Source of the DNA: a bacterium
GTDB lineage: Bacteria > Patescibacteriota > Minisyncoccia > Phycocordibacterales > CAIZLB01
Length of the DNA stretch: 64,000 nt
Assembly (NCBI GenBank): GCA_027490575.1
Contig: JAIXXV010000032.1
Location: 13,211-77,210 of the forward strand
Direction: 5' to 3'
The number at the start of each line of letters is the position of its first letter. Within the stretch, counting starts at the first letter, position 1. The notes below the pieces were generated by a model. The model saw only the letters and a program-made list of their open reading frames with translations, had not been told where the DNA came from and did not search any database. Positions 414-36,362 of this stretch are shown here, in pieces. Both the position numbers and the translations under genes were made by a program.

Positions 414-1541
414 ATGACAAATACAAAAGATTTGGAAAATGTGTCAGTTTCTAAAGAAGAAATGGCTCAGGCTCCCGTAAACCCAACGTACATGGGTAAA
501 CTATTAGCAGATACAGCCAATCCACCTAGTGTTGGAGACCTTGTAGAGGGTCCGGTTATCGCCATCGACAAAAAAGGTGTATTCATAGACCTGAAGCCGT
601 ATGGTACTGGTATTATCTTCGGAAGAGAGTACATCAACGCCAGAGATATCATCAGAAAGGTAAATGTTGGTGACAATATTGCCGCTAAGGTTGTAGAAAT
701 CAGTAATACTGATGGATACGTAGAACTTTCACTTAAAGAAGCTAAACAAGCCCTTATTTGGAATGAGGCTGAAGACGCTATCAAGTCAAAAGTCACATTT
801 GATATACCTGTACTTGAAGCAAACAAAGGAGGTCTACTACTATCATGGCAAGGTATTCACGGATTCCTTCCAGCATCTCAACTTAAAGCTGATCACTACC
901 CACGTGTAGAAGATGGTGATAAAGACAGAATCCTAGAAGAACTAAAAAAGCTTGTAGGCCAAAAGCTTTCAGTTACTATCATTGGTGCATCTCCAAAAGA
1001 AGGTAAACTTATCTTCTCTGAGAAAAACCCTGAGACTAAGGAGAAAGAACAAGCAGCTGGTAAGTACTCTGTAGGTGATGAAGTTGAAGGTACTGTTACA
1101 GGTGCAGTTGATTTCGGAGTCTTTATCAAGATAGAAGAAGGTCTAGAAGGACTTGTTCACATATCTGAGATAGACTGGGCACTTGTTGAGGACCCTAGAC
1201 TTCTATACAAAGTCGGAGACAAAGTTAAAGTTAAGGTTATAGAAATCAAAGACGGCAAGATATCTCTATCTATCAAGGCTCTAAAGGAAAATCCTTGGAA
1301 AGAAGCTGAGAAGAAATACAAGAAAGACGATATCGTTAAAGGTGTTGTTATCAAATTCAACAAGCACGGTGCACTTGCTAGTATCGAAGAAGGTGTTGCA
1401 GGACTTGTACACGTTTCAGAATTCGGTAGTGATATCAAACTTAGAGAAAAACTAGAGCTAGGAAAGATTTACACATTCAAGATCAATCTATTTGATGCAA
1501 AAGATCAAAAGATGGCGCTTGGGTTTGTCGACAAAAAATAA
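414..1541 (+). CDS. rpsA: S1 RNA-binding domain protein (ribosomal protein S1-like, four S1 repeats)
   Basis: 375-aa ORF with repeated GxxVxGxVxxIxxxGxFVxL-type S1 motifs (GDLVEGPVIAIDKKGVFIDL, GDEVEGTVTGAVDFGVFIKI, DDIVKGVVIKFNKHGALASI). TAA stop. Confidence 0.8.
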   Translation: MTNTKDLENVSVSKEEMAQAPVNPTYMGKLLADTANPPSVGDLVEGPVIAIDKKGVFIDLKPYGTGIIFGREYINARDIIRKVNVGDNIAAKVVEISNTDGYVELSLKEAKQALIWNEAEDAIKSKVTFDIPVLEANKGGLLLSWQGIHGFLPASQLKADHYPRVEDGDKDRILEELKKLVGQKLSVTIIGASPKEGKLIFSEKNPETKEKEQAAGKYSVGDEVEGTVTGAVDFGVFIKIEEGLEGLVHISEIDWALVEDPRLLYKVGDKVKVKVIEIKDGKISLSIKALKENPWKEAEKKYKKDDIVKGVVIKFNKHGALASIEEGVAGLVHVSEFGSDIKLREKLELGKIYTFKINLFDAKDQKMALGFVDKK

Positions 1542-1568
1542 AAATCTTCGCAACTATTTTTAGAGAAC

Positions 1569-1600
1569 AAAACCTCGAAACAATCGGGGTTTTTGTTTTT
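1569..1600 (+). terminator. Rho-independent terminator after rpsA
   Basis: Stem aacctcg (1571-1577) / cggggtt (1585-1591) followed by tttttgttttt. Confidence 0.6.
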
Positions 1601-1664
1601 CCTAATACTAGTAAATGCTATTTGATGGCCATATTTAAGCCCTATCTTGAGCCACATTTTGTAT

Positions 1665-1692
1665 TTGACAAGCCATATAGTGCTGGTATAAT
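1665..1692 (+). promoter_or_regulatory. Near-consensus sigma70-type promoter (TTGACA, 16-nt spacer, TGgTATAAT)
   Basis: TTGACA at 1665-1670. TATAAT at 1687-1692 with TG at 1684-1685 (extended -10). Confidence 0.6.
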
Positions 1693-1793
1693 ACTATTCC
1701 AGTACAAGGCGCAAGTTTTGTACAACCTCAACAATTTAGAAGGTGTTCATGTGATCACCTTAGCACCCGAATTGAAAGGCGGGTTTGAACATT

Positions 1794-1991
1794 ATGGCAG
1801 CCATGTTTAACGACGGAAGACCTATTCAAAACGTCTTCCAAGTAAGTCAGAGAGCATTGCTTTCGGAGGAAAGCCTACTTCTTGAAGAAATGAGAGAAGC
1901 ATCACTTGCTGATTTCCATCCAGTTCACGCTGGATTCGCTGGTGCCCTCGCACTAATTCTGGAGGTAGGTGCCGACGACAACGAACTCTGA
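1794..1991 (+). CDS. Small orphan protein (65 aa), islet A
   Basis: ATG at 1794 preceded by GAAAGGCGGG. The ORF lies between the consensus promoter at 1665 and the hairpin terminator at 2011. TGA stop. No recognisable motif. Confidence 0.4.
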   Translation: MAAMFNDGRPIQNVFQVSQRALLSEESLLLEEMREASLADFHPVHAGFAGALALILEVGADDNEL

Positions 1992-2010
1992 GCCTCAAAA
2001 GCTCCCAATA

Positions 2011-2049
2011 GCCGACTCTCACCCTCGTGGTGGCAGTCGGCTTTTTTTA
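2011..2049. terminator. Hairpin terminator between islet A and the convergent pth
   Basis: gccgact (2011-2017) / agtcggc (2035-2041) followed by tttttttt. Confidence 0.7.
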
Positions 2050-2087
2050 TTTCCCAAAGATTGCTACTGGTCAGACTCACACTTAAA

Positions 2088-2699
2088 CTAACCCTGATTA
2101 AACTCACCCATTGCCTTTTCCCTACCTTCACTTATACACATGTAAATTGCTTCTGCGACTTTTTTTGATATTTTCTTTATCTCATCAAACTCAGCTGGCT
2201 TGAACTCACCTACTATAAAATCCATGATTTTATCTGAACCTGGCTTTTTGGGTTTACCAGAAGGAGTTGTTGGACATATGCCGACTTTTATTCTGGCAAA
2301 TGCTTCTGTCTTTATAGCTTTTTTTATTGACTCTATACCCCTGTGCCCACCTGATCCTCGATTGAAAAGTATTTTTATCTTTCCAATGGGCATATCTAGG
2401 TCGTCTTGCACGACTATCAGCTTTTCAGCTTTTTTTGCACTTGTCACCAAGGGTGCGACACTGGCACCAGACTTGTTCATATAGGTCTCAGGTAAAACGA
2501 GAGTGACTTTTTCTACACCTGTTTTTGCGTTTTCTGAATCAATCTCATCTTGAGAAATCATTGCCGAATACTTAGAACTTTTTACAAACTCAGGAAACTT
2601 ATACTTTTTTGCAAATTGTTCAACTCCAATACGACCAGCATTATGTCTGGTATTTTTGTACTCTTCACCTGGGTTTCCTAGTCCAACGACAATATACAT
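2088..2699 (-). CDS. pth: Peptidyl-tRNA hydrolase
   Basis: N-terminus MYIVVGLGNPGEEYKNTRHNAGR is the canonical Pth signature. 203 aa. Confidence 0.9.
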   Translation of the reverse strand: MYIVVGLGNPGEEYKNTRHNAGRIGVEQFAKKYKFPEFVKSSKYSAMISQDEIDSENAKTGVEKVTLVLPETYMNKSGASVAPLVTSAKKAEKLIVVQDDLDMPIGKIKILFNRGSGGHRGIESIKKAIKTEAFARIKVGICPTTPSGKPKKPGSDKIMDFIVGEFKPAEFDEIKKISKKVAEAIYMCISEGREKAMGEFNQG

Positions 2700-2751
2700 A
2701 TTATTTTATTTATATTTTGATTATAACATAAAAGTGTAGTATCATGCTGAT

Positions 2752-3303
2752 ATGAGTTTTTTATCAAGACAATTTAAAGAGTGGCGTTATACGATTTTGC
2801 TTTTCATTGTATTGATATCTATCCGACTATTTGTTGCAGAGCCATTTCTAGTTTATGGAAGTTCTATGGATCCCACGTTTACATCCGGTGATTATCTGGT
2901 GGTTGATGAGATAAGTTACAAGCTAGAAAATCCAAAGAGAGGTGAAGTCATAGTTTTCATACCACCATATGACAACACCAGACATTTTATAAAAAGGATT
3001 ATAGGGCTTCCAGGTGAGACAGTTATAGTTGATGGTTCAGTTATAAAGATTATAAATGACCAGAATCCAAAAGGATTTATCTTGGATGAGCCATATGTAA
3101 AGTTCCAGAGCAATAGAAAATCCACAGTAAAACTCAGCGAAAATGAGTATTATGTGGCTGGTGACAACAGAAATGTCAGCTACGACTCTAGAAGCTGGGG
3201 TGCCTTGCCATCTGAGAATATTACTGGTAGAGCATTATTGAGATTGTATCCTTTCCAAAGTATAGGTATACTCCCTGGAAATGAGCACATTACGGCTGAA
3301 TAA
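2752..3303 (+). CDS. lepB: Signal peptidase I
   Basis: N-terminal TM segment, catalytic-Ser box GSSMDPTF, KRIIGLPGE box and GDNRNVSYDSRSWG box. Confidence 0.9.
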   Translation: MSFLSRQFKEWRYTILLFIVLISIRLFVAEPFLVYGSSMDPTFTSGDYLVVDEISYKLENPKRGEVIVFIPPYDNTRHFIKRIIGLPGETVIVDGSVIKIINDQNPKGFILDEPYVKFQSNRKSTVKLSENEYYVAGDNRNVSYDSRSWGALPSENITGRALLRLYPFQSIGILPGNEHITAE

Positions 3304-3432
3304 GGGCCAAATCCTGCATAATAGCCTTACATAGGCCGCAGACAGCTCAATGCAGGGCCAAGGGTCCAGATTTAGACGCAATATCGGACACAGCATATAG
3401 CTGGATTTAGCATAAATAAATCAAACAAAAAA

Positions 3433-4713
3433 ATGGCTGAGAAGAAAACAAAAAGCAAAACTGACCAAAAAAACATTTTGACTGATAAAAACCCAATTTT
3501 CAAAGGACATGAACATGCAAGCCACACTGCAAAACACTATGGCTTTCACCCATTTGCAGGACTACAGGTAGAAAAACAAGACCTGGTAAAAGCTAAAAAC
3601 TTCAAAGATAGTAAGAAAACCGCCTTCAACGACAAGGACTCTCTTTTGAGTTTTGATAAGTTACTTGAAGAGAAGATTGCCATCATGAGAATGTATGTCG
3701 AGAAACAAATGGCTGACATTCATCAACCACCGATGATTTCATACAGTGGTCCTCTTACTGGAAACCCTCATGCATCTGATAAAACTAAACTCAAGACATT
3801 TAACCTTGATATAGTTGCCAATCCAAAAAGTATTGCCGATGCACTAGTTATCGAAACAGCTTTTGTTATTTTGAAAGAGCAGATTGATGCTGATTCTGAG
3901 TTAATGATTGAGATAAACTCTATTGGAGATAAAGAATCATTCCAAAAATTCACTAAAGACTTGATAGTATTTTCAAAAAAGAGAGCGCCGGATATGCCGA
4001 CTAGCATCAGGCAAGCATTTAAGAAAGACCCTTTTACTTTGTACTCATGTAAAGACGAAGAGTGTCTAGCTATACAAGAAGAGGCTCCAAAGCCCATGAG
4101 CTACCTTTCAGAAGAAAGTCGTGATCATTTTAGAGAAGTACTTGAGTATATTGAGTCATTGTCTATCCCCTACACCATCAATCATTCACTTATAGGCAGT
4201 AGACACTATTCTTCTGGGACAATATTTCAAATCGTGAAAGTTCCGAAAGCAGGCAAAGGTCCAAAAGATGGCAAGATAAAAAGAGAGGTATTGGCTATTG
4301 GCGAAAGATACAACAATGTATCAAAGAAAGCTTGGAACAAAAAAGAAGTTCCTGCTGTTGGTGTAACAATGCTAATAGATGAAAAAGCTATAAAGAATCT
4401 ACCACCAAAAAAGATTATCATTGAAGAGGCAAAGTTTTACTTTATACAGCTTGGTTATGATGCAAAGCTAAAGAGTCTTTCTATTATAGAAATGCTTCGT
4501 GTTGCAAATATCCCTGTTCATCAATCTCTATCTAGAGATAAGATAACGAGCCAGCTTGCTGCCGCGGAGAAACTAAACGTACCGTATATCATCTTGCTTG
4601 GCCAAAAGGAGGCTATAGAAAACAGTGTAACTATTAGACATGTCCAGACTAGAGTACAGGAAACAGTAAAACTCCATGAACTAGTGGATTATATAAAGAA
4701 ATTATTAAAATAA
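3433..4713 (+). CDS. Histidyl-tRNA synthetase-like class II aaRS homologue with degenerate catalytic motifs
   Basis: HisRS-type layout with a C-terminal anticodon-binding domain (VPYIILLGQKEAIENSVTIRH). HisRS boxes are recognisable but altered: GGRYD becomes GERYN, RGLDYY becomes GSRHYS, and the motif-2 arginines are not seen. Confidence 0.6.
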   Translation: MAEKKTKSKTDQKNILTDKNPIFKGHEHASHTAKHYGFHPFAGLQVEKQDLVKAKNFKDSKKTAFNDKDSLLSFDKLLEEKIAIMRMYVEKQMADIHQPPMISYSGPLTGNPHASDKTKLKTFNLDIVANPKSIADALVIETAFVILKEQIDADSELMIEINSIGDKESFQKFTKDLIVFSKKRAPDMPTSIRQAFKKDPFTLYSCKDEECLAIQEEAPKPMSYLSEESRDHFREVLEYIESLSIPYTINHSLIGSRHYSSGTIFQIVKVPKAGKGPKDGKIKREVLAIGERYNNVSKKAWNKKEVPAVGVTMLIDEKAIKNLPPKKIIIEEAKFYFIQLGYDAKLKSLSIIEMLRVANIPVHQSLSRDKITSQLAAAEKLNVPYIILLGQKEAIENSVTIRHVQTRVQETVKLHELVDYIKKLLK

Positions 4714-4833
4714 TATTAAGAAAGGCTCAAATATACCTAAATATATCTTTACGGCGCATTAGGATTGCTAGAATTGGTAATAATTCTATATGATTTGCAA
4801 GAATTAGCCATTCATGATATATTTTGAAACCAT

Positions 4834-5076
4834 ATGATAAACGTTAATATCCAGAAGAACCCAACAGAAAGTGCTGCTTCTATTTTGAGAAGATTTACTA
4901 AGAAAGTACAAGAGTCAGGTGTACTTAACAGAGTTAGATCTATCAAATACGCAGAGAGAAACCTTTCATACTACAAAAAGAAAAAAGGTGCTCTTGAAAA
5001 GCTTAAAAGACAACTTGAAAGAGAGAACTTGATCAAGCTTGGAAAACTCACAGTTGTTACAAGAAAAGGTAGATAG
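4834..5076 (+). CDS. rpsU: Ribosomal protein S21
   Basis: 80 aa, basic, S21-like ILRRFTKKVQESGVL..YYKKKKG pattern. Confidence 0.85.
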   Translation: MINVNIQKNPTESAASILRRFTKKVQESGVLNRVRSIKYAERNLSYYKKKKGALEKLKRQLERENLIKLGKLTVVTRKGR

Positions 5077-5164
5077 TTGGTCACTAGATAACTAAGTTCA
5101 CTTATCTAGTATAAGTGTCTTCAAGCCTTAGTGCTGTCTAAAAGTCATAGTCAAAGTTACAATT

Positions 5165-5569
5165 ATGAATACTTTATACACACAAGACACATTCGAAATA
5201 TCTACAACCGTAAAAAAGGCGCCTAAGATTGATGGCGCTCTTTTTTATAAGTTAAAAAACCATGTTTTAGGTAAGAACTATGACCTGAGTTTTGTTTTTA
5301 TCGGACAAAAGCGTATGAGACACCTGAATAACACTCATAGACGAAAAGATTATGCGACTGATATTTTGAGTTTTACTATTGATAATGAGAACGGAGAAAT
5401 ATTTATTTATCCAAAAAAAGCAGAACAAAAATCAAAAGATTTTGATAAAACTTTTAAAGAATATTTACCTTTTTTATTTATCCACGGGTTAATGCATTTG
5501 AAAGGATTCGAACATGGTAGTATTATGGATAGTGAAGAAGCTCGAGTTAGAAGCTTGTTCAAAGTTTAA
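5165..5569 (+). CDS. ybeY: rRNA maturation endoribonuclease YbeY
   Basis: Zinc-binding motif HGLMHLKGFEH (HGxLHLxGxxH). Confidence 0.85.
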   Translation: MNTLYTQDTFEISTTVKKAPKIDGALFYKLKNHVLGKNYDLSFVFIGQKRMRHLNNTHRRKDYATDILSFTIDNENGEIFIYPKKAEQKSKDFDKTFKEYLPFLFIHGLMHLKGFEHGSIMDSEEARVRSLFKV

Positions 5570-5593
5570 ATAATCTTTTCAAGAAATATACAA

Positions 5594-6781
5594 ATGGCAT
5601 TAGGTCGAAATACAGCTGTCGGCATTGACGTAGGAACTCATCAAGTAAAAGTGATCGTCGGTGAATCTGACCCTAAAAATGAAAAATCTATGCCTCGAAT
5701 CATTGGCTCTGGTATCGCAGAATCAAAAGGTATTCGTCATGGATTTGTAACAAACGTTGATGATATTGCAAAGAGTATCAGGACAGCGGTATCTATGGCC
5801 GAGAAATCATGTGGTTCCCCTATCAAAAAAGCCTATATATCAGTAGGTGGTGTAGGACTAGGTGCCATCATATCTTTTGGAAGTGTAGCAACCACCAAAG
5901 CAGACTCAGAGATCACAGAGCTAGATATCAAACGTGCCATAGAGGAGAGCGAAAAGGAGCTACCAAACACATACATACAAAACAGAAAGATTATACATAC
6001 AGTACCGCTCGAGTTTAGAGTAGACGGAAAAAGGATACTGGGCAGACCTGTTGGCCTAAAGGGCGTCAAACTAGAAGTGAAAGTTTTATATATCACATGT
6101 CTATCGCACCACCTCAACGACTTACTATCTGCATTTGACGAAGCAGACATAGAAGTTCTAGACGTCACAGCTTCACCTATAGCAGCAAGTCTTGTCACCC
6201 TAAGTAAAACTCAAAAGATTGCAGGTTGTATACTAGCTAACATTGGCGCTGAGACTACATCTATCATAGTATTTGAAAACAACACACCAGTTTCTATGGA
6301 GGTATTTCAGATAGGTTCAAATGATATAACCAACGACTTGGCATTAGGTCTCAAGATATCAATAGAAGAAGCCGAGGATATAAAGCGAGGTACAGGACGC
6401 ATTGGAGAATTTTCAAAAAGAAAGATTGAGGAAATCATCGTCGCTCGTCTATCAGACATATTTGACCTAATAGAAGATCACCTAAAACGTATAGATAGAA
6501 ACGGCCTACTTCCAGCAGGTATCATCATGACAGGTGGAGGATCAAATATCCACAGTATCGAAGAGTTAGCAAAAGTAACACTTAGACTACCTTCAAAACA
6601 ATCAAGGCTGCGCTTCGAAGGAAACATAAAAAACATGCAAAATGACACTGAATGGGCGGTTTGCTATGGTTTAGCCCTTTTGAACCTTACAGACACTCCA
6701 GGAGACGATTTTAAGCCTTTAAACGAGTTTAAAAAGGTCAGTAGATTCATGATTAGATTCTTTAAGAAGTTTCTACCTTAG
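5594..6781 (+). CDS. ftsA: Cell division protein FtsA (actin-like ATPase)
   Basis: 395 aa. Starts AVGIDVGTHQVKVIV, has the later GGGS phosphate loop (IIMTGGGSNI), and lies immediately upstream of ftsZ. Confidence 0.85.
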   Translation: MALGRNTAVGIDVGTHQVKVIVGESDPKNEKSMPRIIGSGIAESKGIRHGFVTNVDDIAKSIRTAVSMAEKSCGSPIKKAYISVGGVGLGAIISFGSVATTKADSEITELDIKRAIEESEKELPNTYIQNRKIIHTVPLEFRVDGKRILGRPVGLKGVKLEVKVLYITCLSHHLNDLLSAFDEADIEVLDVTASPIAASLVTLSKTQKIAGCILANIGAETTSIIVFENNTPVSMEVFQIGSNDITNDLALGLKISIEEAEDIKRGTGRIGEFSKRKIEEIIVARLSDIFDLIEDHLKRIDRNGLLPAGIIMTGGGSNIHSIEELAKVTLRLPSKQSRLRFEGNIKNMQNDTEWAVCYGLALLNLTDTPGDDFKPLNEFKKVSRFMIRFFKKFLP

Positions 6782-6824
6782 TTACATAGGGCTACTTGTT
6801 GCACCTTGGCATATTTAGACGTCC

Positions 6825-6980
6825 TTTACATGTCTTTTAAAATACTTATATTTTAGGCAATACTTTGCCATTATTGTCGCCTTTTACATTTAAAATGGTA
6901 GTGGTATTATTGTCTCATATTAACCAGTGCGGTTGATTTGTCTGTTTGACTTTTACATGCTAGAAAAAACTTTATAAATA
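6825..6980 (+). promoter_or_regulatory. Three tandem TTTACA/-10-like promoter candidates in the 278-bp ftsA-ftsZ spacer
   Basis: TTTACA occurs at 6825, 6883 and 6952. The first two are followed 16 nt later by TATATT and TATTAT; the third has a weaker TATAAA/TAAATA 15-17 nt downstream. The CTTTTACAT context is repeated. Confidence 0.4.
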
Positions 6981-7058
6981 ATTCATTATTTATAAGTATC
7001 ATTGTGTATGACAAGTTTAAGACATTGTCCGTAATTATTTCAGAATTTTATAAATACT

Positions 7059-8315
7059 ATGCCTCAAGTAAAACCAGAAATAGAAACATTCGCTAGAATC
7101 AAAGTCATCGGTATCGGTGGCTCAGGAAAAAACGCAACTAATCACATGATTAATGCGAAAGTTAAAAGTGTAGACTTCTTAGCTATCAATACTGATGCTC
7201 AAGATCTACACCACTCACTTGCAAAGAAAAAAATTCACATTGGAAAAAATCTAACACGAGGACTAGGTGCTGGTATGAATCCTGAAGTAGGTAAAAGAGC
7301 TGCTGAAGAAACAAAAGAAGAGATTCAAGAGGCTTTGAAAAACTCTGACATGGTGTTTGTTGCTGGAGGTCTAGGTGGTGGTACTTGTACTGGTGCTTCC
7401 CCTATCGTAGCAAAGATTGCTAGAGAGATGGGTGCTTTGACTATCGGTGTAGTTACAAAACCTTTCATGTTCGAAGGTCAATCTCGTATGAGACTTGCAG
7501 ACCAAGGCCTAGAAGAACTAAGTAAAGCCGTTGACGCTCTAGTAGTTATCCCTAACGACAAGCTTCTAGCCGCAGTTGGCAAAGACACTACTGCAAAGCA
7601 AGCTTTCAGTATGTGCGATGAGGTTCTTAGACAAGCAGTAGAGGGTATTTCAGACCTTATCACTATGCCTGGTACAGTCGGAAACATTGACTTTGCTGAC
7701 ATCAGAGCGGTCCTAGAGGACGCTGGATCAGCACTTATGGGTATTGGTAGTGCTAGTGGTGAAAAGAGAGCTGAGGAGGCCGCTAAAGCCGCTATCAGTT
7801 CCCCACTTATCGATATTTCTATCCATGGTGCCAAAGGAGTACTATTCTCTATCGCATCTGGAGACGACCTCACTATGTGGGAGATCCAGGAAGCTGCCAA
7901 GATCATTACTGACTCAGTTGATCCAAATGCCAAGATTATCTTCGGTACTGTAAAAGACGAAAAGCTCAAGAAAAATGAAATAAAGATCACTGTTATCGCC
8001 GCCAACTTCCCTGATTCATCAGCTTCTAGGAGATCATTTTCTATGAATCCAACTCAAGTAGTAGAGAGAGAAGAGATTGTTGAACCAAAAAGAGGTATAT
8101 TCAACTCATTTGGAGGAGGTTCATCTTCACAACCAGTACAGCAACAACCTCAGCCAGAACAAGCACCTGCTCCAGCTCCAGTGCACACACCTACTCAAGC
8201 AAGCCCTATAGTGGAGACAAAGCGCACTGAGGCTCCTACACCTATACAGACAGTACAAGATGATGACGACGAATGGGGTGCTGTGCCAGCGTTCCTAAGG
8301 AGAAGTAAGAAGTAG
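7059..8315 (+). CDS. ftsZ: Cell division GTPase FtsZ
   Basis: GIGGSGKNA and GGLGGGTCTGASP tubulin signature. P/Q-rich linker and C-terminal peptide DDDEWGAVPAFLRR. Confidence 0.95.
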   Translation: MPQVKPEIETFARIKVIGIGGSGKNATNHMINAKVKSVDFLAINTDAQDLHHSLAKKKIHIGKNLTRGLGAGMNPEVGKRAAEETKEEIQEALKNSDMVFVAGGLGGGTCTGASPIVAKIAREMGALTIGVVTKPFMFEGQSRMRLADQGLEELSKAVDALVVIPNDKLLAAVGKDTTAKQAFSMCDEVLRQAVEGISDLITMPGTVGNIDFADIRAVLEDAGSALMGIGSASGEKRAEEAAKAAISSPLIDISIHGAKGVLFSIASGDDLTMWEIQEAAKIITDSVDPNAKIIFGTVKDEKLKKNEIKITVIAANFPDSSASRRSFSMNPTQVVEREEIVEPKRGIFNSFGGGSSSQPVQQQPQPEQAPAPAPVHTPTQASPIVETKRTEAPTPIQTVQDDDDEWGAVPAFLRRSKK

Positions 8316-10361: not shown

Positions 10362-11222
10362 ATGCAAAGCGAATTAGAAAAACAAGTAGAAGGAGCAGAA
10401 GATGGTGCAGAAAAAGACGAAATCGACTCGAGCATCTCGAGTGAGGTAGTTACCACGACAACAACAGCGCAAGGTGTCAAGCTTACCGAGCGAGAGCTCA
10501 GGATGCTGTTTGTCAGGACAAATCTGATTGACGACCTTGTCATGAGTATCGCAGGGAAAGTCCCTAAGAATGAAAAGGATGCCGGCCGGATCAAGAAACT
10601 CATTATTGCGACTCCTGCACAAATCTTGATCTTTGTTATCATTATGATACTGGCAATATTCACAATTTCGTCAGCGAAACATCTTGATCAACTATTCACA
10701 GGGACTGTGTCCAGTGCACTACTCAGTGTATCAGCAATCATGCTAGTTTTTTCCATCATCTTCACGTTGATTTCTGCGATTCGATGGTGGTATGACTACA
10801 AAAAAGAGCAGATTGACGGTTTGAAGAAGGTTGAACTCTTCATCGAGCACTTCCTCGATTCAATCATCCCAATAGAACGAGTCGATCAGGATAAAGTAAT
10901 CCATGAACTAGATGAGTTCGTCTTGGAAAGACTAACAAAAGTCTATCTTCATCTGCAAGCATATGTGGAATATTGCTCTATAAATCACATGATTTCTGTG
11001 TACGGTGTTCCGGAAAATTACGCTGAGTACGAAGAAGAGTGTGAAGTCATGTTTGATATTGCAATTAAAATTGGATGGAGCGTTGGAAATATTAGCCATT
11101 CAAGAGGTCGAATTGCAGGTGCTATCAAACGTCGAATCGATGAACTTGGAGGAGACGGTCTCTGGTCTAATACCTACTACCAGAGATGTGTTCATGGGCA
11201 CACTTGGATATTCCCAACATAA
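10362..11222 (+). CDS. Orphan 2-TM membrane protein B1 (acidic N-terminus, two central TM helices, helical C-domain)
   Basis: 286-aa ORF with a strong SD. TM helices ILIFVIIMILAIFTI and LLSVSAIMLVFSIIFTLI. C-terminal box YEEECEVMFDIAIKIGWSVGNIS is shared with B2. Confidence 0.6.
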   Translation: MQSELEKQVEGAEDGAEKDEIDSSISSEVVTTTTTAQGVKLTERELRMLFVRTNLIDDLVMSIAGKVPKNEKDAGRIKKLIIATPAQILIFVIIMILAIFTISSAKHLDQLFTGTVSSALLSVSAIMLVFSIIFTLISAIRWWYDYKKEQIDGLKKVELFIEHFLDSIIPIERVDQDKVIHELDEFVLERLTKVYLHLQAYVEYCSINHMISVYGVPENYAEYEEECEVMFDIAIKIGWSVGNISHSRGRIAGAIKRRIDELGGDGLWSNTYYQRCVHGHTWIFPT

Positions 11223-11347: not shown

Positions 11348-11481
11348 TGTCGGACCATATCTCCAAACACGTAGCATGGAGTAACGGCCGAAAACCGTTG
11401 TTTCCTGGACCCGAAAAGTCCCGTTAATTTGGCACATTCAAAATACAAATGAGGGGCCGACACTTCTCGCACTCAAATACA
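11348..11481 (+). promoter_or_regulatory. Structured 5' leader of 2-TM gene B2, homologous to the B1 leader
   Basis: TGTCGG (11348-11353), two hairpins with identical CCGAAAA loops (11383-11399 and 11407-11421), CATTCAAAATACAAA (from 11435), GGGGCCGACA (11453-11462). The spacing from TGTCGG to CATTCA is 82 nt, against 81 nt in B1. Confidence 0.45.
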
Positions 11482-12249
11482 ATGAAACTCAGTGAAATCA
11501 ACTACCGCTTTACAGTCGAACCTGTATTGAGACTAATCCAATCCATGATGAAAAATGGCAATTACATCACTCCACAGAGCTCAAGCAGAACTCTGTCGAT
11601 GATGTTTTGGCTAAATTCGTCCATACGAAACGAGCTGATGCAATGGACTTTCAAAATTGGTCCATCGTGGCCAGAAGATCCAAATCCTCTAAAATCAATT
11701 ACAGGCGCAATGATTGCATTCATCATTGCATTAGCAGCAGGAGTGGCGCAGTACTTATTTCCAAATTTAGTACCATTTTTGATCATTTTCTTGCCCTCAG
11801 CAGTACTGTGTATTTACTGGACCACACTGTCTTTAGCCGCTGTGGTAGTCAGAATCAAAAAAGCATGCTTTCTTACTGACTTTATCAACATAGTTGGTAC
11901 AATACCGCTAATAAGGAGGCAGCATCTCATAAACCCTGGACATCGTGAAAGTAGCTATGATTACCTTGTCGTGGTGATGCTTTTGCAACAACTCATGAGT
12001 GTTTCCAAAAAGGTCAAAGGTAATACTGAAGACCCGAAGCTAAAAGATGAAGAGAAAAGGCTATATGACTCAGCCTTCAAACTTGGTGTACTAGGAGATG
12101 ACATCTCGGCCGTATACACGTTGGTATATCGGTTGATTGAGGAAAAGGAGCAAGGTAAACCTATAGGATCGGGTCAAAATAGCGGCGGAGATGGAGACGG
12201 CTTTCCAGAACCTGACCCAGACGCACTCCCGACAAGCGTCCTTGGTTAA
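11482..12249 (+). CDS. Orphan 2-TM membrane protein B2, tandem paralogue of B1
   Basis: The track ORF starts at 11449. ATG 11482 is preferred because it lies 29 nt after the GGGGCCGACA box (31 nt in B1). It has two TM helices, and its box DEEKRLYDSAFKLGVLGDDIS aligns with the B1 box. Confidence 0.55.
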   Translation: MKLSEINYRFTVEPVLRLIQSMMKNGNYITPQSSSRTLSMMFWLNSSIRNELMQWTFKIGPSWPEDPNPLKSITGAMIAFIIALAAGVAQYLFPNLVPFLIIFLPSAVLCIYWTTLSLAAVVVRIKKACFLTDFINIVGTIPLIRRQHLINPGHRESSYDYLVVVMLLQQLMSVSKKVKGNTEDPKLKDEEKRLYDSAFKLGVLGDDISAVYTLVYRLIEEKEQGKPIGSGQNSGGDGDGFPEPDPDALPTSVLG

Positions 12250-19947: not shown

Positions 19948-20050
19948 GTACTAATTATACTCCTATTGATCGAAATTGTTATTAAGTAATAAATATGGCA
20001 TTATGTTTTATCTAAATAAATTGGCTTTTGCCGTAGCCTGTAAGCACCAA

Positions 20051-21379
20051 ATGACTAAAAACAAGGATAAATTGAGAATATTATCAATAGAAACCAGCTG
20101 TGACGAGACAGCAGTTTCAATAATAGACGCTGAAGGAGGTGTTGATACACCTGTTTTCAAAGTTCTTGGAAATGCACTCTACTCACAAATAGACTTACAT
20201 GCCGAATACGGTGGTGTATTCCCGATGCTTGCCAAAAGAGAGCATGGTAAAAATCTGGTTCCACTACTTGATCAAGCAGTTGATATTGCTTTAAAATCAG
20301 CTGACATAACTGACAGTACTGCACAATCCACAGAATCACAAAACTCATTCACAAACCTCACCGAGCAAACTACTCTCATCACAAGCATCCTAGAGAAAGA
20401 GCAAGGTCTATCAGAGACTCTACTAAAATACCTTGAAGAAAATATAAATAAATTATCAAGTTTAAATATAGATTATATTGCGGTAACAAAAGGACCAGGG
20501 CTTGAACCCGCTCTTTGGGTAGGTATTAGTTTTGCAAAAGCACTTTCTATAGCTGTGCAAAAACCATTGATACCTATAAATCACATGGAAGGTCATATTG
20601 TTTCTGTTTTGACTGACGATACTCTGAACGGAGCCCCTAGCGACTCGGTAGAGCACAGAGTAAACTTCCCCGCTCTCGCATTACTAATCTCTGGTGGCCA
20701 CACCGAGCTAGTAGAATGCAAAAACTGGAATGAATACAAGATAATCGGACACACTGTGGATGATGCTATAGGTGAAGCCTTCGACAAAGTAGCTAGACTC
20801 ATCGGTATACCATATCCCGGTGGACCAGTCATATCAAAGCTTGCAAAGGAAAGTCGAGATCAAGACACAACTGCTGAATACGAAAGAACTCATGGAAACA
20901 GACCATGGTCACTCCCTCGACCAATGATACATAGTAAGGATTTAAACTTTTCGTTTTCAGGTATCAAGACCGCTGTTCTATACGCTGTTAGGGAAAAAAC
21001 AGCACAATCAAAGGGTGCAGAACTATCGGACACTGACAAAAAAACATTAGCAGAAGAATTTGAAAATGCTGTAACTGAAGTTATTATCAAAAAAACTGAA
21101 AGGGCCATTGAACAAACTCACTCCGAAACACTCATAGTGGGTGGCGGTGTTATTGCAAATACATACATACGAAATGAACTGAAAAAAATGATTTCAGAAA
21201 AGTTCTCACATGTATCACTTTTGATACCGACCCTTGATATGACAACAGATAACTCAGTCATGATTGGAGTTGCTGGGTATTTGAAAGCTATTTCTAAACC
21301 TGAAAACATCATCCTGCCTGGTGATATAGAAAAACTCACTGCACTTGGTGCCAAAGGTAGTCTTGGACTAGAAGAATAA
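20051..21379 (+). CDS. tsaD: tRNA N6-adenosine threonylcarbamoyltransferase TsaD (Kae1/Gcp) with lineage-specific insertions
   Basis: ILSIETSCDETAVSIID, GPGLEPALWVG, HMEGH. The ATG at 20051 is preferred over the TTG at 19976. An insertion of about 60 aa lies after NLVPLLDQAV. Confidence 0.85.
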   Translation: MTKNKDKLRILSIETSCDETAVSIIDAEGGVDTPVFKVLGNALYSQIDLHAEYGGVFPMLAKREHGKNLVPLLDQAVDIALKSADITDSTAQSTESQNSFTNLTEQTTLITSILEKEQGLSETLLKYLEENINKLSSLNIDYIAVTKGPGLEPALWVGISFAKALSIAVQKPLIPINHMEGHIVSVLTDDTLNGAPSDSVEHRVNFPALALLISGGHTELVECKNWNEYKIIGHTVDDAIGEAFDKVARLIGIPYPGGPVISKLAKESRDQDTTAEYERTHGNRPWSLPRPMIHSKDLNFSFSGIKTAVLYAVREKTAQSKGAELSDTDKKTLAEEFENAVTEVIIKKTERAIEQTHSETLIVGGGVIANTYIRNELKKMISEKFSHVSLLIPTLDMTTDNSVMIGVAGYLKAISKPENIILPGDIEKLTALGAKGSLGLEE

Positions 21380-24082: not shown

Positions 24083-26560
24083 ATGACCAATAATACAAAT
24101 AGTGGTGGTCCTGGTTTTGAACATAACCAAGAGCCTGCCACTCAAAACAATCCTAAAAACAATATCCGAGACACAGACAAGCCTATTTACAAAGAGCCTA
24201 ATATCCCTGCGCCACTACTCTCACCTTACAACCCTGCATTATCAGAACCTGTTGCCATATCTATCAACGAGAAAAGTGGACTTGCTAATCCTGATAAATG
24301 CATAGAGCTTGGACTGACATCAACAGACGCACCGCACTACTCCATAGTACTTCCCCCACCAAATGTTACAGGCACACTTCACTTAGGACATGGTCTGATG
24401 GCGACTCTACAAGATATCAGTATTCGTTTTGAGCGTATGCGTGGCAAGCAGGCACTTTGGATACCAGGTACCGACCACGCTGCCATTGCTACTCAATCAA
24501 AAGTAGAAAAAGATATTTCAAAGAAAGAAGGTAAAAGCCGTTATGACCTTGGTCGCGATGAGATGCTTAAGCGCATAGACGCATTTGCAACTGAAAGTCA
24601 TGACACTATAGTCACTCAGATAAAGAGAATGGGTGCATCTTTGGATTGGTCACGAGAAGCATTTACACTCGATGAAGCTCGTAACAAAGCAGTGAGAACA
24701 GTTTTCAAAAAAATGTACGACGATGGTTTGATATATCAAGGATCGCGCATAGTAAACTGGGACCCAAAAGGACAGACTACGATTTCTGATGATGAGATTG
24801 TGCATGAAGAGAGGAAAGCAAAGCTATACACATTTAAATACAGCAAAGATTTCCCTATCTCTATCTCAACGACTAGACCTGAGACAAAGGTTGGAGATAC
24901 AGCAGTAGCAGTACACCCAGAAGATGAAAGATATGCAGAGTATGTTGGTAAAACATATGACCTAGATTTTTGTGGGTCAAAGATTTCTGTAAAGATTATT
25001 GCTGATCATGCAGTTGAAAAAGACTTCGGTACAGGTGCTCTCGGAGTAACACCTGCCCACAGTATGGTTGACTGGGAAATGTCTCGTAGACATGACTTGC
25101 CAGTTGTACAGGTCATAGATGAAAAGGCTCGAATGATTGTTTCTCAAGACTCCCCTCTCTATGACAAAGAAAAAAATATCGGTATGAAGACTACTGATGC
25201 ACGCGAAAAGGTCGTCGAGTGGTTACGTGAGCAAGGTCTTCTAGAAAAAGAAGAAGATATTATACAAAGAATCGGTACAGCAGAGAGAACAGGTGGTATC
25301 ATCGAGCCTCTTCCGAAGAAACAATGGTGGGTAGCTGTTACAAAACCATTTACAATCAAACACTCAAATATCAGTGGTGTACAAAGCGGTCAACAAACAA
25401 CTCTAAAAGAGATAATGCAAAAAGCTGTTTCAGAAGGACAGATTGCTATTATGCCCGAGCATTACAATAAGACTTATTTCCACTGGATAGATAACCTCAA
25501 CGACTGGTGTATTTCTAGACAGATTTGGTATGGGCATAGGATACCTGTTTGGTACAAGATGGGTTCAAGCGACCAAAGTTCAGGTGCGATTTCTAGCTCA
25601 GCAAAAAGCGAAGTGTACTGCGATGTTCTATCACCTACCGAAGCTGGTCTACCTGATGCTGACATGTATGTACAAGATGAAGACACCCTAGACACTTGGT
25701 TCTCATCTGGTCTTTGGACTTTCTCGACGCTTGGATGGCCAGACAACATTGACGCTAAAACTGGAGAAACAATGGCTGGCTCTGACCTTTCTCGTTTTCA
25801 CCCTACAAACCTGCTTATCACTGGACCTGACATACTTTTCTTCTGGGTTGCACGAATGATCTTGATGACAGGATACGCACTTGGTGAAATACCATTTTCA
25901 AAAGTATACCTAAACGGTATCGTTCGAGATATCAAGGGTCAAAAGATGAGTAAGTCACTTGGAAACGGTGGAGACCCGGTAGAGATATCTGAAAAGTACG
26001 GCGCGGATGCACTTCGTATGTTCTACGCTATGAGTACAGCGCCAGGAACTGATTCTAGGCTAGATGAAAACAAGATAAAGGGCTTTAAGCATTTTGCAAA
26101 TAAGATTTGGAATATCGTAAGGTTCGTGCTGACTGCAACAGAAAACCATACATATGATAAAAGCTTCAGTGGATGGACAGAAAAAGACTCAGTACTGCGC
26201 GCAGAGAGAGATGATATTTTCAAAGCTGTAACCAGAGAGATAGAAGAGAGCAAATACCACCTAGCATCTGAAAAAGTTTATCAATATACATGGAGTACCC
26301 TTGCTGATGTAATACTTGAGGATAGCAAGTTCGTATTCGCAGGTAATGACGAGGAGGCAAAATTATCTCGAGCAAAGTTTCTACTTGAGACAATCAGACT
26401 TATCACGATAGTCGCGCACCCTTTCATGCCACATGTCACTGAAGAAGTTTGGTCATTGTTAACCACAGGTAAAAGTCTAATAGAGCGAGTACAAAACGAT
26501 ACTTCACATGCTACAATAAATCCAAGCGATCTATTGATGGCACAAAAATGGCCTTTTTAA
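24083..26560 (+). CDS. valS: Valine--tRNA ligase
   Basis: Class I HIGH variant PPPNVTGTLHLGH and KMSKS. 825 aa. Confidence 0.95.
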   Translation: MTNNTNSGGPGFEHNQEPATQNNPKNNIRDTDKPIYKEPNIPAPLLSPYNPALSEPVAISINEKSGLANPDKCIELGLTSTDAPHYSIVLPPPNVTGTLHLGHGLMATLQDISIRFERMRGKQALWIPGTDHAAIATQSKVEKDISKKEGKSRYDLGRDEMLKRIDAFATESHDTIVTQIKRMGASLDWSREAFTLDEARNKAVRTVFKKMYDDGLIYQGSRIVNWDPKGQTTISDDEIVHEERKAKLYTFKYSKDFPISISTTRPETKVGDTAVAVHPEDERYAEYVGKTYDLDFCGSKISVKIIADHAVEKDFGTGALGVTPAHSMVDWEMSRRHDLPVVQVIDEKARMIVSQDSPLYDKEKNIGMKTTDAREKVVEWLREQGLLEKEEDIIQRIGTAERTGGIIEPLPKKQWWVAVTKPFTIKHSNISGVQSGQQTTLKEIMQKAVSEGQIAIMPEHYNKTYFHWIDNLNDWCISRQIWYGHRIPVWYKMGSSDQSSGAISSSAKSEVYCDVLSPTEAGLPDADMYVQDEDTLDTWFSSGLWTFSTLGWPDNIDAKTGETMAGSDLSRFHPTNLLITGPDILFFWVARMILMTGYALGEIPFSKVYLNGIVRDIKGQKMSKSLGNGGDPVEISEKYGADALRMFYAMSTAPGTDSRLDENKIKGFKHFANKIWNIVRFVLTATENHTYDKSFSGWTEKDSVLRAERDDIFKAVTREIEESKYHLASEKVYQYTWSTLADVILEDSKFVFAGNDEEAKLSRAKFLLETIRLITIVAHPFMPHVTEEVWSLLTTGKSLIERVQNDTSHATINPSDLLMAQKWPF

Positions 26561-35438: not shown

Positions 35439-36362
35439 TTAAGCTACCACGTTCTGTTTTTTAAGCAATATCTGTACCGCCTTCGTAACTATTGGCAAAA
35501 TGTCATTATAAAAATTGAGCGTTAGTAGATCTTTTGCATTAAACCACCTTGCATCTGTTAGTCCTCCACTGGTTCCAAGTGTAAGCGGTATAAAGTCGGA
35601 CTTTGCCAGGTAGTAACAAACTTGCTTTCGAATCTTGCCATCTTCTGGATGAGATGCAATGTACTCATTGTTAGCCAACTCTTCCTCTATCTCAATATCT
35701 ATACCCATCTCCTCCTTAATCTCACGCATGATGCCATCTTTCATATCTTCGTCACCTTCTAATTTACCTTTTGATAGAGTCCAGTGCCCAAAAACATCAT
35801 GAACTAGAGCGAACTGCATCTCACCATCGTGCATGGCATATACCACAGCACCTCCTAGTTTTTGTATTGGCATTTCTTCATAAGGAACTTCCTTTTTCTC
35901 CTTTTTTTGCTTTTTTGTAGAAACCTCCTCCTTTCCTGGCTCGCCCATCTCTTTGTAGACAGCACCGAGTACTCCGTTTACGAACTTGCCGGATGTTTCC
36001 CCTCCGAAAGACTTCGCCAGCTCAATAGCCTCGTTGATGGCCACTTTAGCTGGTACCTCCTTCCTATCGCCAAAAATTAGCTCAAAAAGGCCTATTCTGA
36101 GCACATTTCGATCAACTATCGCAATCTTGGGTATTGGCCACTCAGGAGCTGCTTTTTCAATGATTAGGTCTATTTCAGGGTTCTTTTTAACCACACCATC
36201 TACAATGTTTTTAATAAACGAAAAATCGCCCATACCAGGAGCGAATTCTTCAACATTTCTTTGAACAATTTCACCAACAACAGCAGAGTCTGAAATACCT
36301 CGAAAGTCTCTTTCGAAAAGTGATTGTAGTGCTATTGATCGTGAAAGGTGCCTATTTGCCAT
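35439..36362 (-). CDS. nusB: NusB antitermination factor fused to a C-terminal Nudix hydrolase domain
   Basis: N-terminal ~140 aa are NusB-like (RSIALQSLFERDF...AINEAIELAKSFG). A K/E-rich linker follows. The C-terminal domain has an intact Nudix box GKLEGDEDMKDGIMREIKEEMGI. Confidence 0.8.
   Translation of the reverse strand: MANRHLSRSIALQSLFERDFRGISDSAVVGEIVQRNVEEFAPGMGDFSFIKNIVDGVVKKNPEIDLIIEKAAPEWPIPKIAIVDRNVLRIGLFELIFGDRKEVPAKVAINEAIELAKSFGGETSGKFVNGVLGAVYKEMGEPGKEEVSTKKQKKEKKEVPYEEMPIQKLGGAVVYAMHDGEMQFALVHDVFGHWTLSKGKLEGDEDMKDGIMREIKEEMGIDIEIEEELANNEYIASHPEDGKIRKQVCYYLAKSDFIPLTLGTSGGLTDARWFNAKDLLTLNFYNDILPIVTKAVQILLKKQNVVA

What the first reader, a model, noticed from the sequence alone, without database searches (positions are those of the whole stretch)
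3433..4713. HisRS homologue with eroded catalytic signatures but an intact anticodon-binding domain
Seen: the overall HisRS layout is present, but the boxes I can align are altered. PPMISYSGPLTGNPHASDKTKLKTFNLDIV stands where motif 2 (fRyErPQxGRxRqFxQ) is expected, LIGSRHYSSGTIFQI stands for LVRGLDYYtxTvFE, and AIGERYNN stands for GGGRYDxL. Established: these residues bind ATP and histidine in HisRS, and HisZ-type paralogues lose them but also lack the anticodon domain. Inference: either a highly divergent functional HisRS or a repurposed tRNA-binding paralogue.
Basis: partly seen in the sequence, partly recalled or inferred. Interest (0 to 1): 0.35.

Follow-up and report, generated by a model that had tools for sequence, protein, structure and literature searches.

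The report
Catalytically dead hisS orthologue, tRNA-His-specific
In a large group of tiny-genome (Patescibacteria) bacteria, the gene sitting exactly where histidyl-tRNA synthetase belongs has lost every residue needed to activate histidine but keeps perfect tRNA-His anticodon-reading residues and is under very strong selection, which raises the question of how these cells charge tRNA-His.

Summary

It is not a dispersed paralogue. In about 130 Patescibacteria loci whose upstream flank is visible, the slot Pth-LepB-[X], usually followed by S21-YbeY-FtsA-FtsZ, holds either a canonical HisRS or this eroded form. So this gene is the positional orthologue of hisS.

The eroded form defines a large clade: 76 of 80 GTDB loci and about 380 50%-identity clusters. 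It is under strong purifying selection (dN/dS 0.012, tighter than FtsZ). It keeps the GUG-anticodon-decoding residues at 97-100%, unlike the Gcn2 pseudo-HisRS. ThrRS and LeuRS in the same window are normal.

Best reading: a non-catalytic, tRNA-His-specific pseudo-synthetase. I could not determine whether these genomes carry another HisRS. None was found in the window, in the 1.4 Mb of flanks scanned, or through contig matching. That gap decides between an interesting new pseudo-enzyme and a real puzzle in translation.

The parts
3433..4713 (+). Eroded HisRS orthologue (426 aa + stop): HisRS catalytic-core fold, insertion domain and HGTP anticodon-binding domain
3535..3582 (+). Motif 1 equivalent (HYGFHPFAGLQVEKQD); the motif 1 proline is replaced (L44)
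   Evidence: Alignment to E. coli P44. Canonical-invariant positions in the N-terminus/motif 1 are retained at only about 0.2.
3649..3696 (+). Equivalent of the RPEGT box (SFDKLLEEKIAIMRMY): E79 aligns with E. coli E83 (binds the histidine alpha-amino group) and is kept; T85 becomes K81
   Evidence: E83 is E in 96% of close family members; T85 is K in 86%.
3727..3816 (+). Eroded motif 2 and loop (PPMISYSGPLTGNPHASDKTKLKTFNLDIV): R113, E115, R121, R123 and Q127 lost; E131 becomes D126
   Evidence: These positions are 100% conserved in 118 canonical relatives and variable or deleted in 258 eroded sequences.
4189..4233 (+). Eroded HisA (LIGSRHYSSGTIFQI): catalytic R259 becomes G255 (Gly in 100% of the close family); Y264 becomes S260; R257 is a non-invariant basic residue at +2
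4294..4317 (+). Modified HisB (AIGERYNN): G290, R292 and Y293 kept; G286 becomes E291 and D289 becomes N294 (both 99% in the close family)
   Evidence: G285 is 100% and R287 is 97-99% across the whole eroded clade.
4351..4392 (+). Eroded motif 3 (PAVGVTMLIDEKAI): G308 becomes L314; the E310-R311 pair becomes D316-E317
4435..4704 (+). Intact anticodon-binding domain (residues 335-424). GUG-decoding residues: E393 (nt 4609-4611, = T. thermophilus E388, reads G34), R402 (4636-4638, = K397, reads G36), Q409 (4657-4659, = Q404, reads U35), L388 (4594-4596, = F383)
   Evidence: Pfam PF03129 E 2e-14. Decoding residues conserved at 97-100% in canonical and eroded sequences alike. Their roles are taken from PMC11363354.
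2088..3303 (.). Upstream half of the conserved hisS slot: pth (2088-2699, -) and lepB (2752-3303, +)
   Evidence: the same neighbours flank canonical HisRS in related lineages.
4834..8315 (+). Downstream half of the slot: rpsU/S21 (4834-5076), ybeY (5165-5569), ftsA (5594-6781), ftsZ (7059-8315)

Best explanation
The gene is the in-situ descendant (positional orthologue) of hisS in a large clade of Paceibacteria/Parcubacteria. It has become a pseudo-synthetase. It keeps the HisRS fold, part of the histidine pocket (E83, E131 as D/E, Y263, and the HisB Gly-x-Arg-Tyr) and a fully competent anticodon-binding domain specific for GUG. It has lost the whole ATP-binding and transition-state apparatus, so it most likely cannot form histidyl-adenylate. 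It therefore most likely acts as an essential, non-catalytic protein that binds tRNA-His specifically through the anticodon. Shown: the homology and fold, the residue losses, positional orthology, strong purifying selection, and retention of the decoding residues. Inferred: catalytic inactivity and tRNA-His binding. Not determined: what it does with the bound tRNA. It could present tRNA-His to a separately encoded catalytic enzyme, or it could sense, sequester or protect tRNA-His while a xenologous HisRS elsewhere in the genome does the charging.
For: (1) Full-length HisRS homology and fold. (2) The residues R113, H114, Q118, R121, R123, Q127, R259, G260, Y264, G286, G308 and R311 are 100% conserved in 118 sequences of the nearest canonical lineage. 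In 117 close and 141 distant eroded sequences they are replaced and differ between sublineages; the motif 2 loop is often deleted and R259 is Gly in 100% and 60% respectively. No conserved substitute set exists, which is the signature of a released constraint and not of a remodelled active site. In the window's subfamily, G286 becomes Glu (99%), which places a carboxylate in the adenylate pocket. (3) The ABD is preserved: invariant-site retention is 0.80-0.86, against 0.2-0.5 elsewhere. The GUG-decoding residues E388, K397 (as R) and Q404 are conserved at 97-100% (roles from PMC11363354). (4) It is not a relic. dN/dS is 0.012 (149 synonymous and 13 non-synonymous differences) against the orthologue on a 771,708-bp contig, compared with FtsA 0.022 and FtsZ 0.040. 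The eroded motifs are themselves conserved within the subfamily. (5) Positional orthology: the S1-Pth-LepB-[HisRS]-S21-YbeY-FtsA-FtsZ order holds in all 91 loci first fetched, whether canonical or eroded, and in the Patescibacteria-type canonical loci from metagenomes (direct look-ups). (6) The erosion is specific to this gene, because ThrRS and LeuRS in the window are canonical.
Against: No second HisRS was found. There is none in the 64-kb window, none within +-10 kb in the 91 loci first scanned or, by a gene-level HMM scan, in the loci fetched later. No lineage-type canonical copy lies outside the slot, apart from one unassignable locus, L128. No contig-length match links canonical and eroded proteins. 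Histidine makes up 2.3% of residues in the window's proteins, so His-tRNA-His must be made somehow. If no other enzyme exists, this protein would have to take part in charging. Essential-grade purifying selection and perfect retention in the hisS slot are also what one would expect of a working synthetase. Inactivity and tRNA binding are inferred from sequence only.
Confidence: 0.6

Rival explanations
1. It is still the cell's only histidyl-tRNA synthetase, working through a radically remodelled active site, for example with shifted basic residues replacing the three canonical arginines.
For: It is the sole occupant of the hisS slot. No other HisRS is seen in the window or the flanks. Purifying selection is very strong. 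The tRNA-His-specific ABD is intact. An R/K sits two residues after the lost R259 in 72% of close and 58% of distant members. The motif 2 loop is K/R-rich, and the motif 3 position is K/R in 44% of distant members. Part of the histidine pocket is kept.
Against: None of the candidate replacement residues is invariant; position 261 is Gly in 22% of the close family. The motif 2 loop is deleted in many members. Different sublineages carry different residues at every ATP-contacting position. In the window's subfamily, G286 becomes Glu and R311 becomes Glu or Asp, putting acidic groups where ATP phosphates bind. No active class II synthetase lacking both the motif 2 and motif 3 arginines is known (my own knowledge).
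Confidence: 0.15
2. It is the tRNA-recognition subunit of a two-component histidylation system. A separately encoded catalytic protein makes His-AMP and this protein supplies anticodon recognition, loosely comparable to the alpha/beta division of labour in bacterial GlyRS or PheRS.
For: This would explain together the essential-grade constraint, the invariant decoding residues, the dispensable ATP site, the retained HisRS fold and the lack of any lineage-type canonical HisRS outside the slot.
Against: No candidate partner was found. No protein family is enriched near eroded loci beyond the shared syntenic genes, and the window has no extra class II core. The motif 1/dimer-interface region is the least conserved part. 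There is no precedent for a split HisRS.
Confidence: 0.15
3. It is a HisZ-like regulatory subunit of ATP phosphoribosyltransferase, acting in histidine biosynthesis.
Against: It has an intact, anticodon-specific ABD, whereas the HisZ chains matched are 275-380 residues long. NCBIfam HisZ models score 12-19 bits against cut-offs of 450-643. It sits in the hisS slot among translation and cell-division genes, and no HisG family appears among the called genes of any locus looked up. It descends directly from the lineage's own HisRS. Patescibacteria generally lack amino-acid biosynthesis (my own knowledge).
Confidence: 0.02
4. It is a decaying relic or pseudogene of hisS with no function.
For: The catalytic signatures are lost.
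Against: The ORF is intact in more than 80 species. dN/dS is 0.012. The ABD and the subfamily-specific core motifs are highly conserved.
Confidence: 0.01

Closest known systems
Bacterial histidyl-tRNA synthetase (HisRS, class IIa; TIGR00442 / PF13393+PF03129), specifically the Patescibacteria-type HisRS of Yonathbacteria, Vogelbacteria and Pacebacteria
   Same: Same domain order and fold, same genomic slot, and the same GUG-decoding ABD residues. It is 37% identical in the core and 51% in the ABD to the canonical sister lineage.
   Different: It lacks the motif 2 Arg/Glu and loop, the HisA Arg, the motif 3 Arg and Gln127. It scores far below the family cut-offs. It has also lost five of the seven invariant cysteines in the lineage's insertion domain.
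Gcn2 HisRS-like domain (eukaryotic pseudo-synthetase that senses deacylated tRNA; PDB 8T7T, 9C9Q)
   Different: Gcn2 lost the anticodon-decoding residues and binds tRNAs non-specifically; this protein keeps them at 97-100%. Gcn2's domain is fused to a kinase, whereas this is a stand-alone bacterial protein that replaces hisS at its own locus.
HisZ (HisRS paralogue, regulatory subunit of short-form ATP phosphoribosyltransferase)
   Same: Adenylation capacity is lost while a HisRS-like core and the GGRYD-type HisB are retained (PMC9437257).
   Different: The HisZ chains matched are 275-380 residues long, and by my own knowledge HisZ lacks a functional anticodon-binding domain and works with HisG. 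This protein has an intact tRNA-His-specific ABD, shows no hisG association in the loci examined, and fails the HisZ family models.
Other non-catalytic class II aaRS derivatives that keep an HGTP-type domain (for example the mitochondrial DNA polymerase gamma accessory subunit)
   Different: They are unrelated in origin (GlyRS-like), do not act on tRNA, and are eukaryotic.

Membership tests
Histidyl-tRNA synthetase (HisRS) | Full-length homology and class IIa HisRS fold (core + insertion + HGTP ABD) | tested here: met
Histidyl-tRNA synthetase (HisRS) | Score above the curated family thresholds (TIGR00442 286.75 bits; Pfam PF13393 / PF00587 core models) | tested here: not met
   123.4 bits against 286.75. 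No PF13393 or PF00587 hit even at E <= 1. PGAP names relatives only 'His/Gly/Thr/Pro-type tRNA ligase C-terminal domain-containing protein'.
Histidyl-tRNA synthetase (HisRS) | Motif 2 (fRxE...GRxRxFxQ): Arg113/Glu115 for ATP, loop Arg121/Arg123/Gln118, Gln127 | tested here: not met
   All are 100% conserved in 118 canonical relatives, except E115 (E 86% / D 11%). All are lost or deleted in the window protein and in 258 eroded relatives.
Histidyl-tRNA synthetase (HisRS) | HisA (RGLDYY) with catalytic Arg259 and Tyr264 | tested here: not met
   R259 becomes G255 (Gly in 100% of the close family and 60% of the distant). Y264 becomes S/C/A.
Histidyl-tRNA synthetase (HisRS) | Motif 3 (GxGxGxER) with Arg311 | tested here: not met
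   G308 becomes L314 and R311 becomes E317. The clade shows E/D/gap or K/R/P at this position with no consensus.
Histidyl-tRNA synthetase (HisRS) | HisB (GGRYD) | tested here: inconclusive
   The sequence is G290-E291-R292-Y293-N294. Gly, Arg and Tyr are kept (97-100% clade-wide), while the second Gly and the Asp are changed.
Histidyl-tRNA synthetase (HisRS) | Anticodon-binding domain with GUG-decoding residues (T. thermophilus E388, K397, Q404, F383) | tested here: met
   E393, R402, Q409 and L388 in the window protein. Conservation is 97-100% in canonical and eroded sequences alike.
Histidyl-tRNA synthetase (HisRS) | Occupies the lineage's hisS locus (orthology) | tested here: met
   Same Pth-LepB-[X]-S21-YbeY-FtsA-FtsZ slot as canonical HisRS.
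Histidyl-tRNA synthetase (HisRS) | Histidine activation and tRNA-His aminoacylation activity | not testable with these tools
   Needs ATP-PPi exchange and aminoacylation assays.
HisZ (ATP-PRT regulatory subunit) | Match to curated HisZ models | tested here: not met
   NF008940 scores 18.6 bits against a cut-off of 450; NF008942 scores 12 against 643.
HisZ (ATP-PRT regulatory subunit) | No functional anticodon-binding domain; short protein | tested here: not met
   The protein has an intact ABD with decoding residues. The HisZ chains matched are 275-380 residues long.
HisZ (ATP-PRT regulatory subunit) | Genomic or functional association with hisG / the his operon | tested here: not met
   No HisG family appears among the called genes in any locus looked up. 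The neighbours are translation and cell-division genes. This was not tested genome-wide.
Gcn2-type HisRS-like pseudoenzyme | Catalytically null HisRS fold retaining core + ABD, with HisB kept and HisA diverged | tested here: met
   criteria from PMC11363354.
Gcn2-type HisRS-like pseudoenzyme | ABD has lost anticodon-specific side chains (non-specific tRNA binding) | tested here: not met
   The decoding residues are retained at 97-100%.
Gcn2-type HisRS-like pseudoenzyme | Embedded in a multidomain eIF2-alpha kinase | tested here: not met
   This is a stand-alone 426-aa protein, and Pfam finds no other domain.

The most novel reading that the evidence does not exclude
A whole clade of Paceibacteria (at least 76 GTDB species, about 380 50%-identity clusters) has no conventional HisRS at all. 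On this reading, His-tRNA-His is made by an undescribed route in which this dead-core, anticodon-specific protein serves as the tRNA-recognition module for a separate, unidentified catalytic partner, or the route depends on the host cell.
Probability: 0.2. Interest if true: 0.92.

Novelty: new variant of a known kind. Interest (0 to 1): 0.7.

Why it matters
aaRS-derived pseudo-enzymes are known (HisZ, the Gcn2 HisRS-like domain). This one would be a bacterial, stand-alone example that arose by in-place conversion of the organism's own hisS, that keeps tRNA-His-specific anticodon reading, and that is conserved as tightly as FtsZ.

It matters in three ways.

1. Annotation. JGI calls these proteins 'histidyl-tRNA synthetase'. 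Pipelines that count them as HisRS may be mis-scoring a large part of the Parcubacteria. hisS (TIGR00442) is, to my knowledge, also a bac120 marker gene, and this protein scores below that model's cut-off.

2. Biology. Either a xenologous HisRS displaced the native enzyme and freed it for a new essential tRNA-His-linked role, or these symbionts charge tRNA-His in an unconventional way. Both are directly testable.

3. Evolution. The clade is a natural experiment in how a synthetase loses catalysis while retaining tRNA specificity. Semi-eroded forms (P0222, P0202) branch at the transition.

Tried and rejected
1. Second HisRS in the window. phmmer with E. coli HisRS and an HMM of the canonical lineage against all six-frame ORFs found only the target and the ThrRS ABD.

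2. Co-occurrence by matching 'longest_contig' lengths between eroded proteins and canonical proteins. There was no real match. One shared value, 2160 bp, is too short to hold two genes.

3. Tandem or nearby second copy. None lies within +-10 kb in the 91 loci first fetched.

4. Duplicate of the lineage's own HisRS elsewhere in the genome. All Patescibacteria-type canonical genes with visible upstream context are in the slot. The one exception, L128, belongs to the hisS family of Azambacteria, Portnoybacteria and Nealsonbacteria and shows no link to eroded genomes.

5. Off-slot, lower-scoring HisRS loci as candidate xenologues. They are high-GC or unrelated bacteria.

6. Partner-gene enrichment near eroded loci. 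Only the shared syntenic genes came up.

7. tRNA-His features. No tRNA-His gene is in the window or in the 91 loci scanned.

8. RNA leader or T-box. Rfam finds only two tRNAs in the window.

9. AFDB structure search for organism-level co-occurrence. The library was unavailable.

10. Literature. I found nothing on aberrant or missing HisRS in CPR/Patescibacteria.

11. HisZ and pseudogene readings were rejected (see rivals).

Full report

**Residue-level check.** R113 aligns to a gap or Gly, E115, R121, R123 and Q127 are lost, R259 becomes G255, Y264 becomes S260, G286 becomes E291, D289 becomes N294, G308 becomes L314 and R311 becomes E317. Retained are E83 (E79), E131 (as D126), Y263 (Y259) and HisB G285/R287/Y288. 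So the residues are absent, not shifted. The only hint of a shift is an R/K two positions after R259, present in 72% of close and 58% of distant relatives and replaced by Gly in 22% of the close family.

**The erosion is gene-specific.** ThrRS (41564-43405) and LeuRS (24083-26560) in the same window hit their catalytic-core models at E 1.7e-41 and 2e-117, and ThrRS keeps its motif 2.

**A large family, not a one-off.** The protein has hundreds of relatives in Patescibacteria MAGs labelled Taylorbacteria, Pacebacteria and Parcubacteria. Of the 120 best, 119 lack a precomputed PF13393 hit. JGI names them 'histidyl-tRNA synthetase', while PGAP names them only by the C-terminal domain. An exhaustive search of 1.84 billion representatives finds 380 clusters at E <= 1e-30. 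Of 144 full-length representatives examined, about 140 lack motif 2, HisA-Arg and motif 3-Arg, often with the motif 2 loop deleted. Three (P0191, P0242, P0254) are fully canonical and two (P0202, P0222) are semi-eroded. Within the window's subfamily the 'eroded' motifs are themselves conserved: PPMIxYSGPLxGNPH, KTFNLDI, IGSxxYxSGTIF and AIGERYN.

**Relationship to canonical HisRS.** The canonical relatives carry every HisRS signature and have an ABD very like the window protein's. Searching with them recovers thousands of canonical HisRS from Yonathbacteria, Paceibacterota, Pacebacteria and Minisyncoccota. In an NJ tree of 208 sequences, a single split separates all eroded sequences from the canonical ones plus E. 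coli. The eroded clade has longer branches (0.83 against 0.65). The acceleration is mostly in the core: identity to canonical sequences is 0.38 in the core and 0.49 in the ABD, where the canonical lineage shows 0.65 and 0.62 internally. Long-branch attraction could exaggerate the apparent monophyly.

**Key finding: positional orthology.** Canonical HisRS of Yonathbacteria, Pacebacteria and another MAG lies in the order gyrA...Lactamase_B_3-S1-pth(-)-lepB-hisS-S21-ybeY-ftsA-ftsZ. That is exactly the window's arrangement around the eroded gene. A GTDB scan with the eroded family returned 80 species-level loci labelled Paceibacterota, Taylorbacteria, Nomurabacteria, Vogelbacteria and Zambryskiibacteriota. 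HMM scores are bimodal. On the canonical HMM, canonical loci score 700-800 bits and eroded loci 213-380 bits, giving 76 eroded and 4 canonical loci. All 91 loci fetched up to that point show the same gene order, whichever form is present. A metagenome scan with the canonical profile gave about 49 Patescibacteria-type canonical genes. Where the upstream flank is visible they sit behind Pth-LepB, apart from one unassignable locus, L128. Canonical and eroded forms are therefore alternative occupants of one ancestral locus, and the eroded gene is the orthologue of hisS, not a dispersed paralogue.

**Selection.** Against the 98%-identical orthologue on a 771,708-bp JGI contig, the gene shows 149 synonymous and 13 non-synonymous differences, so dN/dS is 0.012. 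Neighbouring genes give FtsA 0.022, FtsZ 0.040, Pth 0.045 and LepB 0.055. Within the close family, mean pairwise identity is 0.73 in the ABD and about 0.60 in the core. This is an essential-grade gene, not a relic.

**What is kept and what is lost.** I took positions that are at least 95% invariant in 118 canonical relatives and measured how often the eroded clade keeps the same residue. Mean retention (close / distant members) is 0.20 / 0.23 in the N-terminus and motif 1, 0.40 / 0.32 and 0.41 / 0.49 in the two core segments, 0.51 / 0.55 in the insertion domain, and 0.86 / 0.80 in the ABD.

The Gcn2 structure paper (PMC11363354) lists the residues with which authentic HisRS reads the GUG anticodon: T. 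thermophilus E388 (G34), F383 and Q404 (U35) and K397 (G36). It shows that Gcn2 has lost them. In the eroded clade they are essentially invariant. E388 is E in 100% of close and 99% of distant members. K397 is R in 100% and 97%. Q404 is Q in 100% and 99%. F383 is I or L in 97-98%. The canonical sister lineage has the same residues. In the window protein they are E393, R402, Q409 and L388. The protein has therefore lost the adenylation machinery but kept sequence-specific recognition of tRNA-His.

**Mechanism.** The best-supported reading is a non-catalytic pseudo-synthetase that binds tRNA-His through its anticodon. The absence of any conserved replacement for the ATP and transition-state residues, with different residues and deletions in different sublineages, argues for released constraint and not for a remodelled active site. 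In the window's subfamily, Glu at the G286 position and acidic residues at the R311 position should disfavour ATP binding; this step is inference.

The role of the bound tRNA is open. HisZ-like function is unlikely. The ABD is intact, the HisZ models fail, no hisG appears in any locus looked up, and HisZ acts with HisG (PMC9437257).

**The unresolved point.** Histidine is 2.3% of residues in the window's proteins, so His-tRNA-His must be made. I found no second HisRS by any route:
- none in the window;
- none within +-10 kb in the 91 loci first scanned, and none by a gene-level HMM scan of the later loci;
- no lineage-type copy off the slot that can be tied to eroded genomes;
- the off-slot L128 type is unlinked to eroded genomes;
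- no contig-length match between eroded and canonical proteins;
- no partner family enriched near the gene.

The tools cannot scan whole genomes, so a xenologous HisRS elsewhere remains the most economical assumption. The alternatives are a two-component enzyme or a still-active but remodelled enzyme. I give these about 0.15 each.

**Comparison and novelty.** The protein works like the known HisRS-derived pseudo-enzymes but fails the membership tests for both. Unlike HisZ, it has an anticodon-specific ABD and no HisG link. Unlike Gcn2's domain, it keeps the decoding residues and is a stand-alone bacterial protein. It also fails the catalytic criteria for HisRS while meeting the criteria for fold, ABD and orthology. 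I found no description of it in the searchable literature. I classify it as a new variant of a known kind. It would become something more radical if the complete genomes turn out to lack any other HisRS.

Noticed in passing
A3 alignment (P0288 numbering C183, C203, C206, C220, C225, C240, C243) compared with window residues 161-245 (nt 3913-4167): The Patescibacteria-type canonical HisRS has seven invariant cysteines in the insertion domain, arranged as CxxC ... CxxxxC ... CxxC, which suggests a zinc site. The eroded protein keeps only the central pair (SCKDEEC). Loss of this putative metal site accompanies the loss of catalysis.
   Followed up: partly
window 414-8315 compared with L172: Synonymous divergence between the window and the 771-kb JGI contig varies about tenfold between adjacent genes: dS is 0.10 for S21 and 0.18 for S1, but 1.06 for pth and for the HisRS-like gene. 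This could reflect a recombination mosaic between strains or strong codon constraint on highly expressed genes.
   Followed up: no
window 35439-36362 (-): A single 307-aa ORF combines a NusB domain (residues 7-137) with a NUDIX hydrolase domain (172-285), an unusual fusion.
   Followed up: no
window 19976-21379 (+): The TsaD homologue (467 aa) has an N-terminal extension of about 145 residues before the TsaD domain, with two matched stretches. It may be a fusion with a TsaB-like half.
   Followed up: no
window 1542-2087: A 550-bp gap between S1 and pth holds two small overlapping ORFs (1622-1810 and 1785-1991). They are called as genes in other assemblies of the same species but are only partly conserved in L172. 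No Rfam family matches there.
   Followed up: partly
window 44818-46161 (-), 49874-51127 (+), 62616-63764 (-), 10362-11222 (+), 11449-12249 (+), 59189-60058 (-): Six sizeable ORFs (266-447 aa) have no Pfam match at E <= 1e-5. None resembles a class II synthetase core.
   Followed up: partly
L128 2933-4300 (metagenome contig Ga0209542_10062317): A fully canonical Patescibacteria-type HisRS lies outside the conserved slot, downstream of an M50-like peptidase and a KH-domain protein. Only about ten close relatives were found, with the next tier at 51-57% identity in Azambacteria, Portnoybacteria and Nealsonbacteria.
   Followed up: yes
L012, L014, L017, L024-L026, L028, L031, L068 and others (GTDB loci): Many MAG records titled 'uncultured Candidatus Saccharibacteria bacterium', and one titled 'Bdellovibrionales', carry the Paceibacteria-type locus and the eroded gene. 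These record titles look like placeholder or wrong taxonomy.
   Followed up: no
P0202, P0222, P0164 (representatives): These are semi-eroded forms at the base of the eroded clade. P0222 keeps HisA (LVRGLDFY) and HisB (GAGGRYDGL) but lacks motifs 2 and 3. P0202 keeps the motif 2 Arg but has Thr for the motif 3 Arg. They may record the order in which catalytic elements were lost.
   Followed up: partly
window 3304-3432: The 129-bp leader of the gene ends in an A-rich tract (AAATCAAACAAAAAAA-ATG) with no recognisable Shine-Dalgarno sequence.
   Followed up: no
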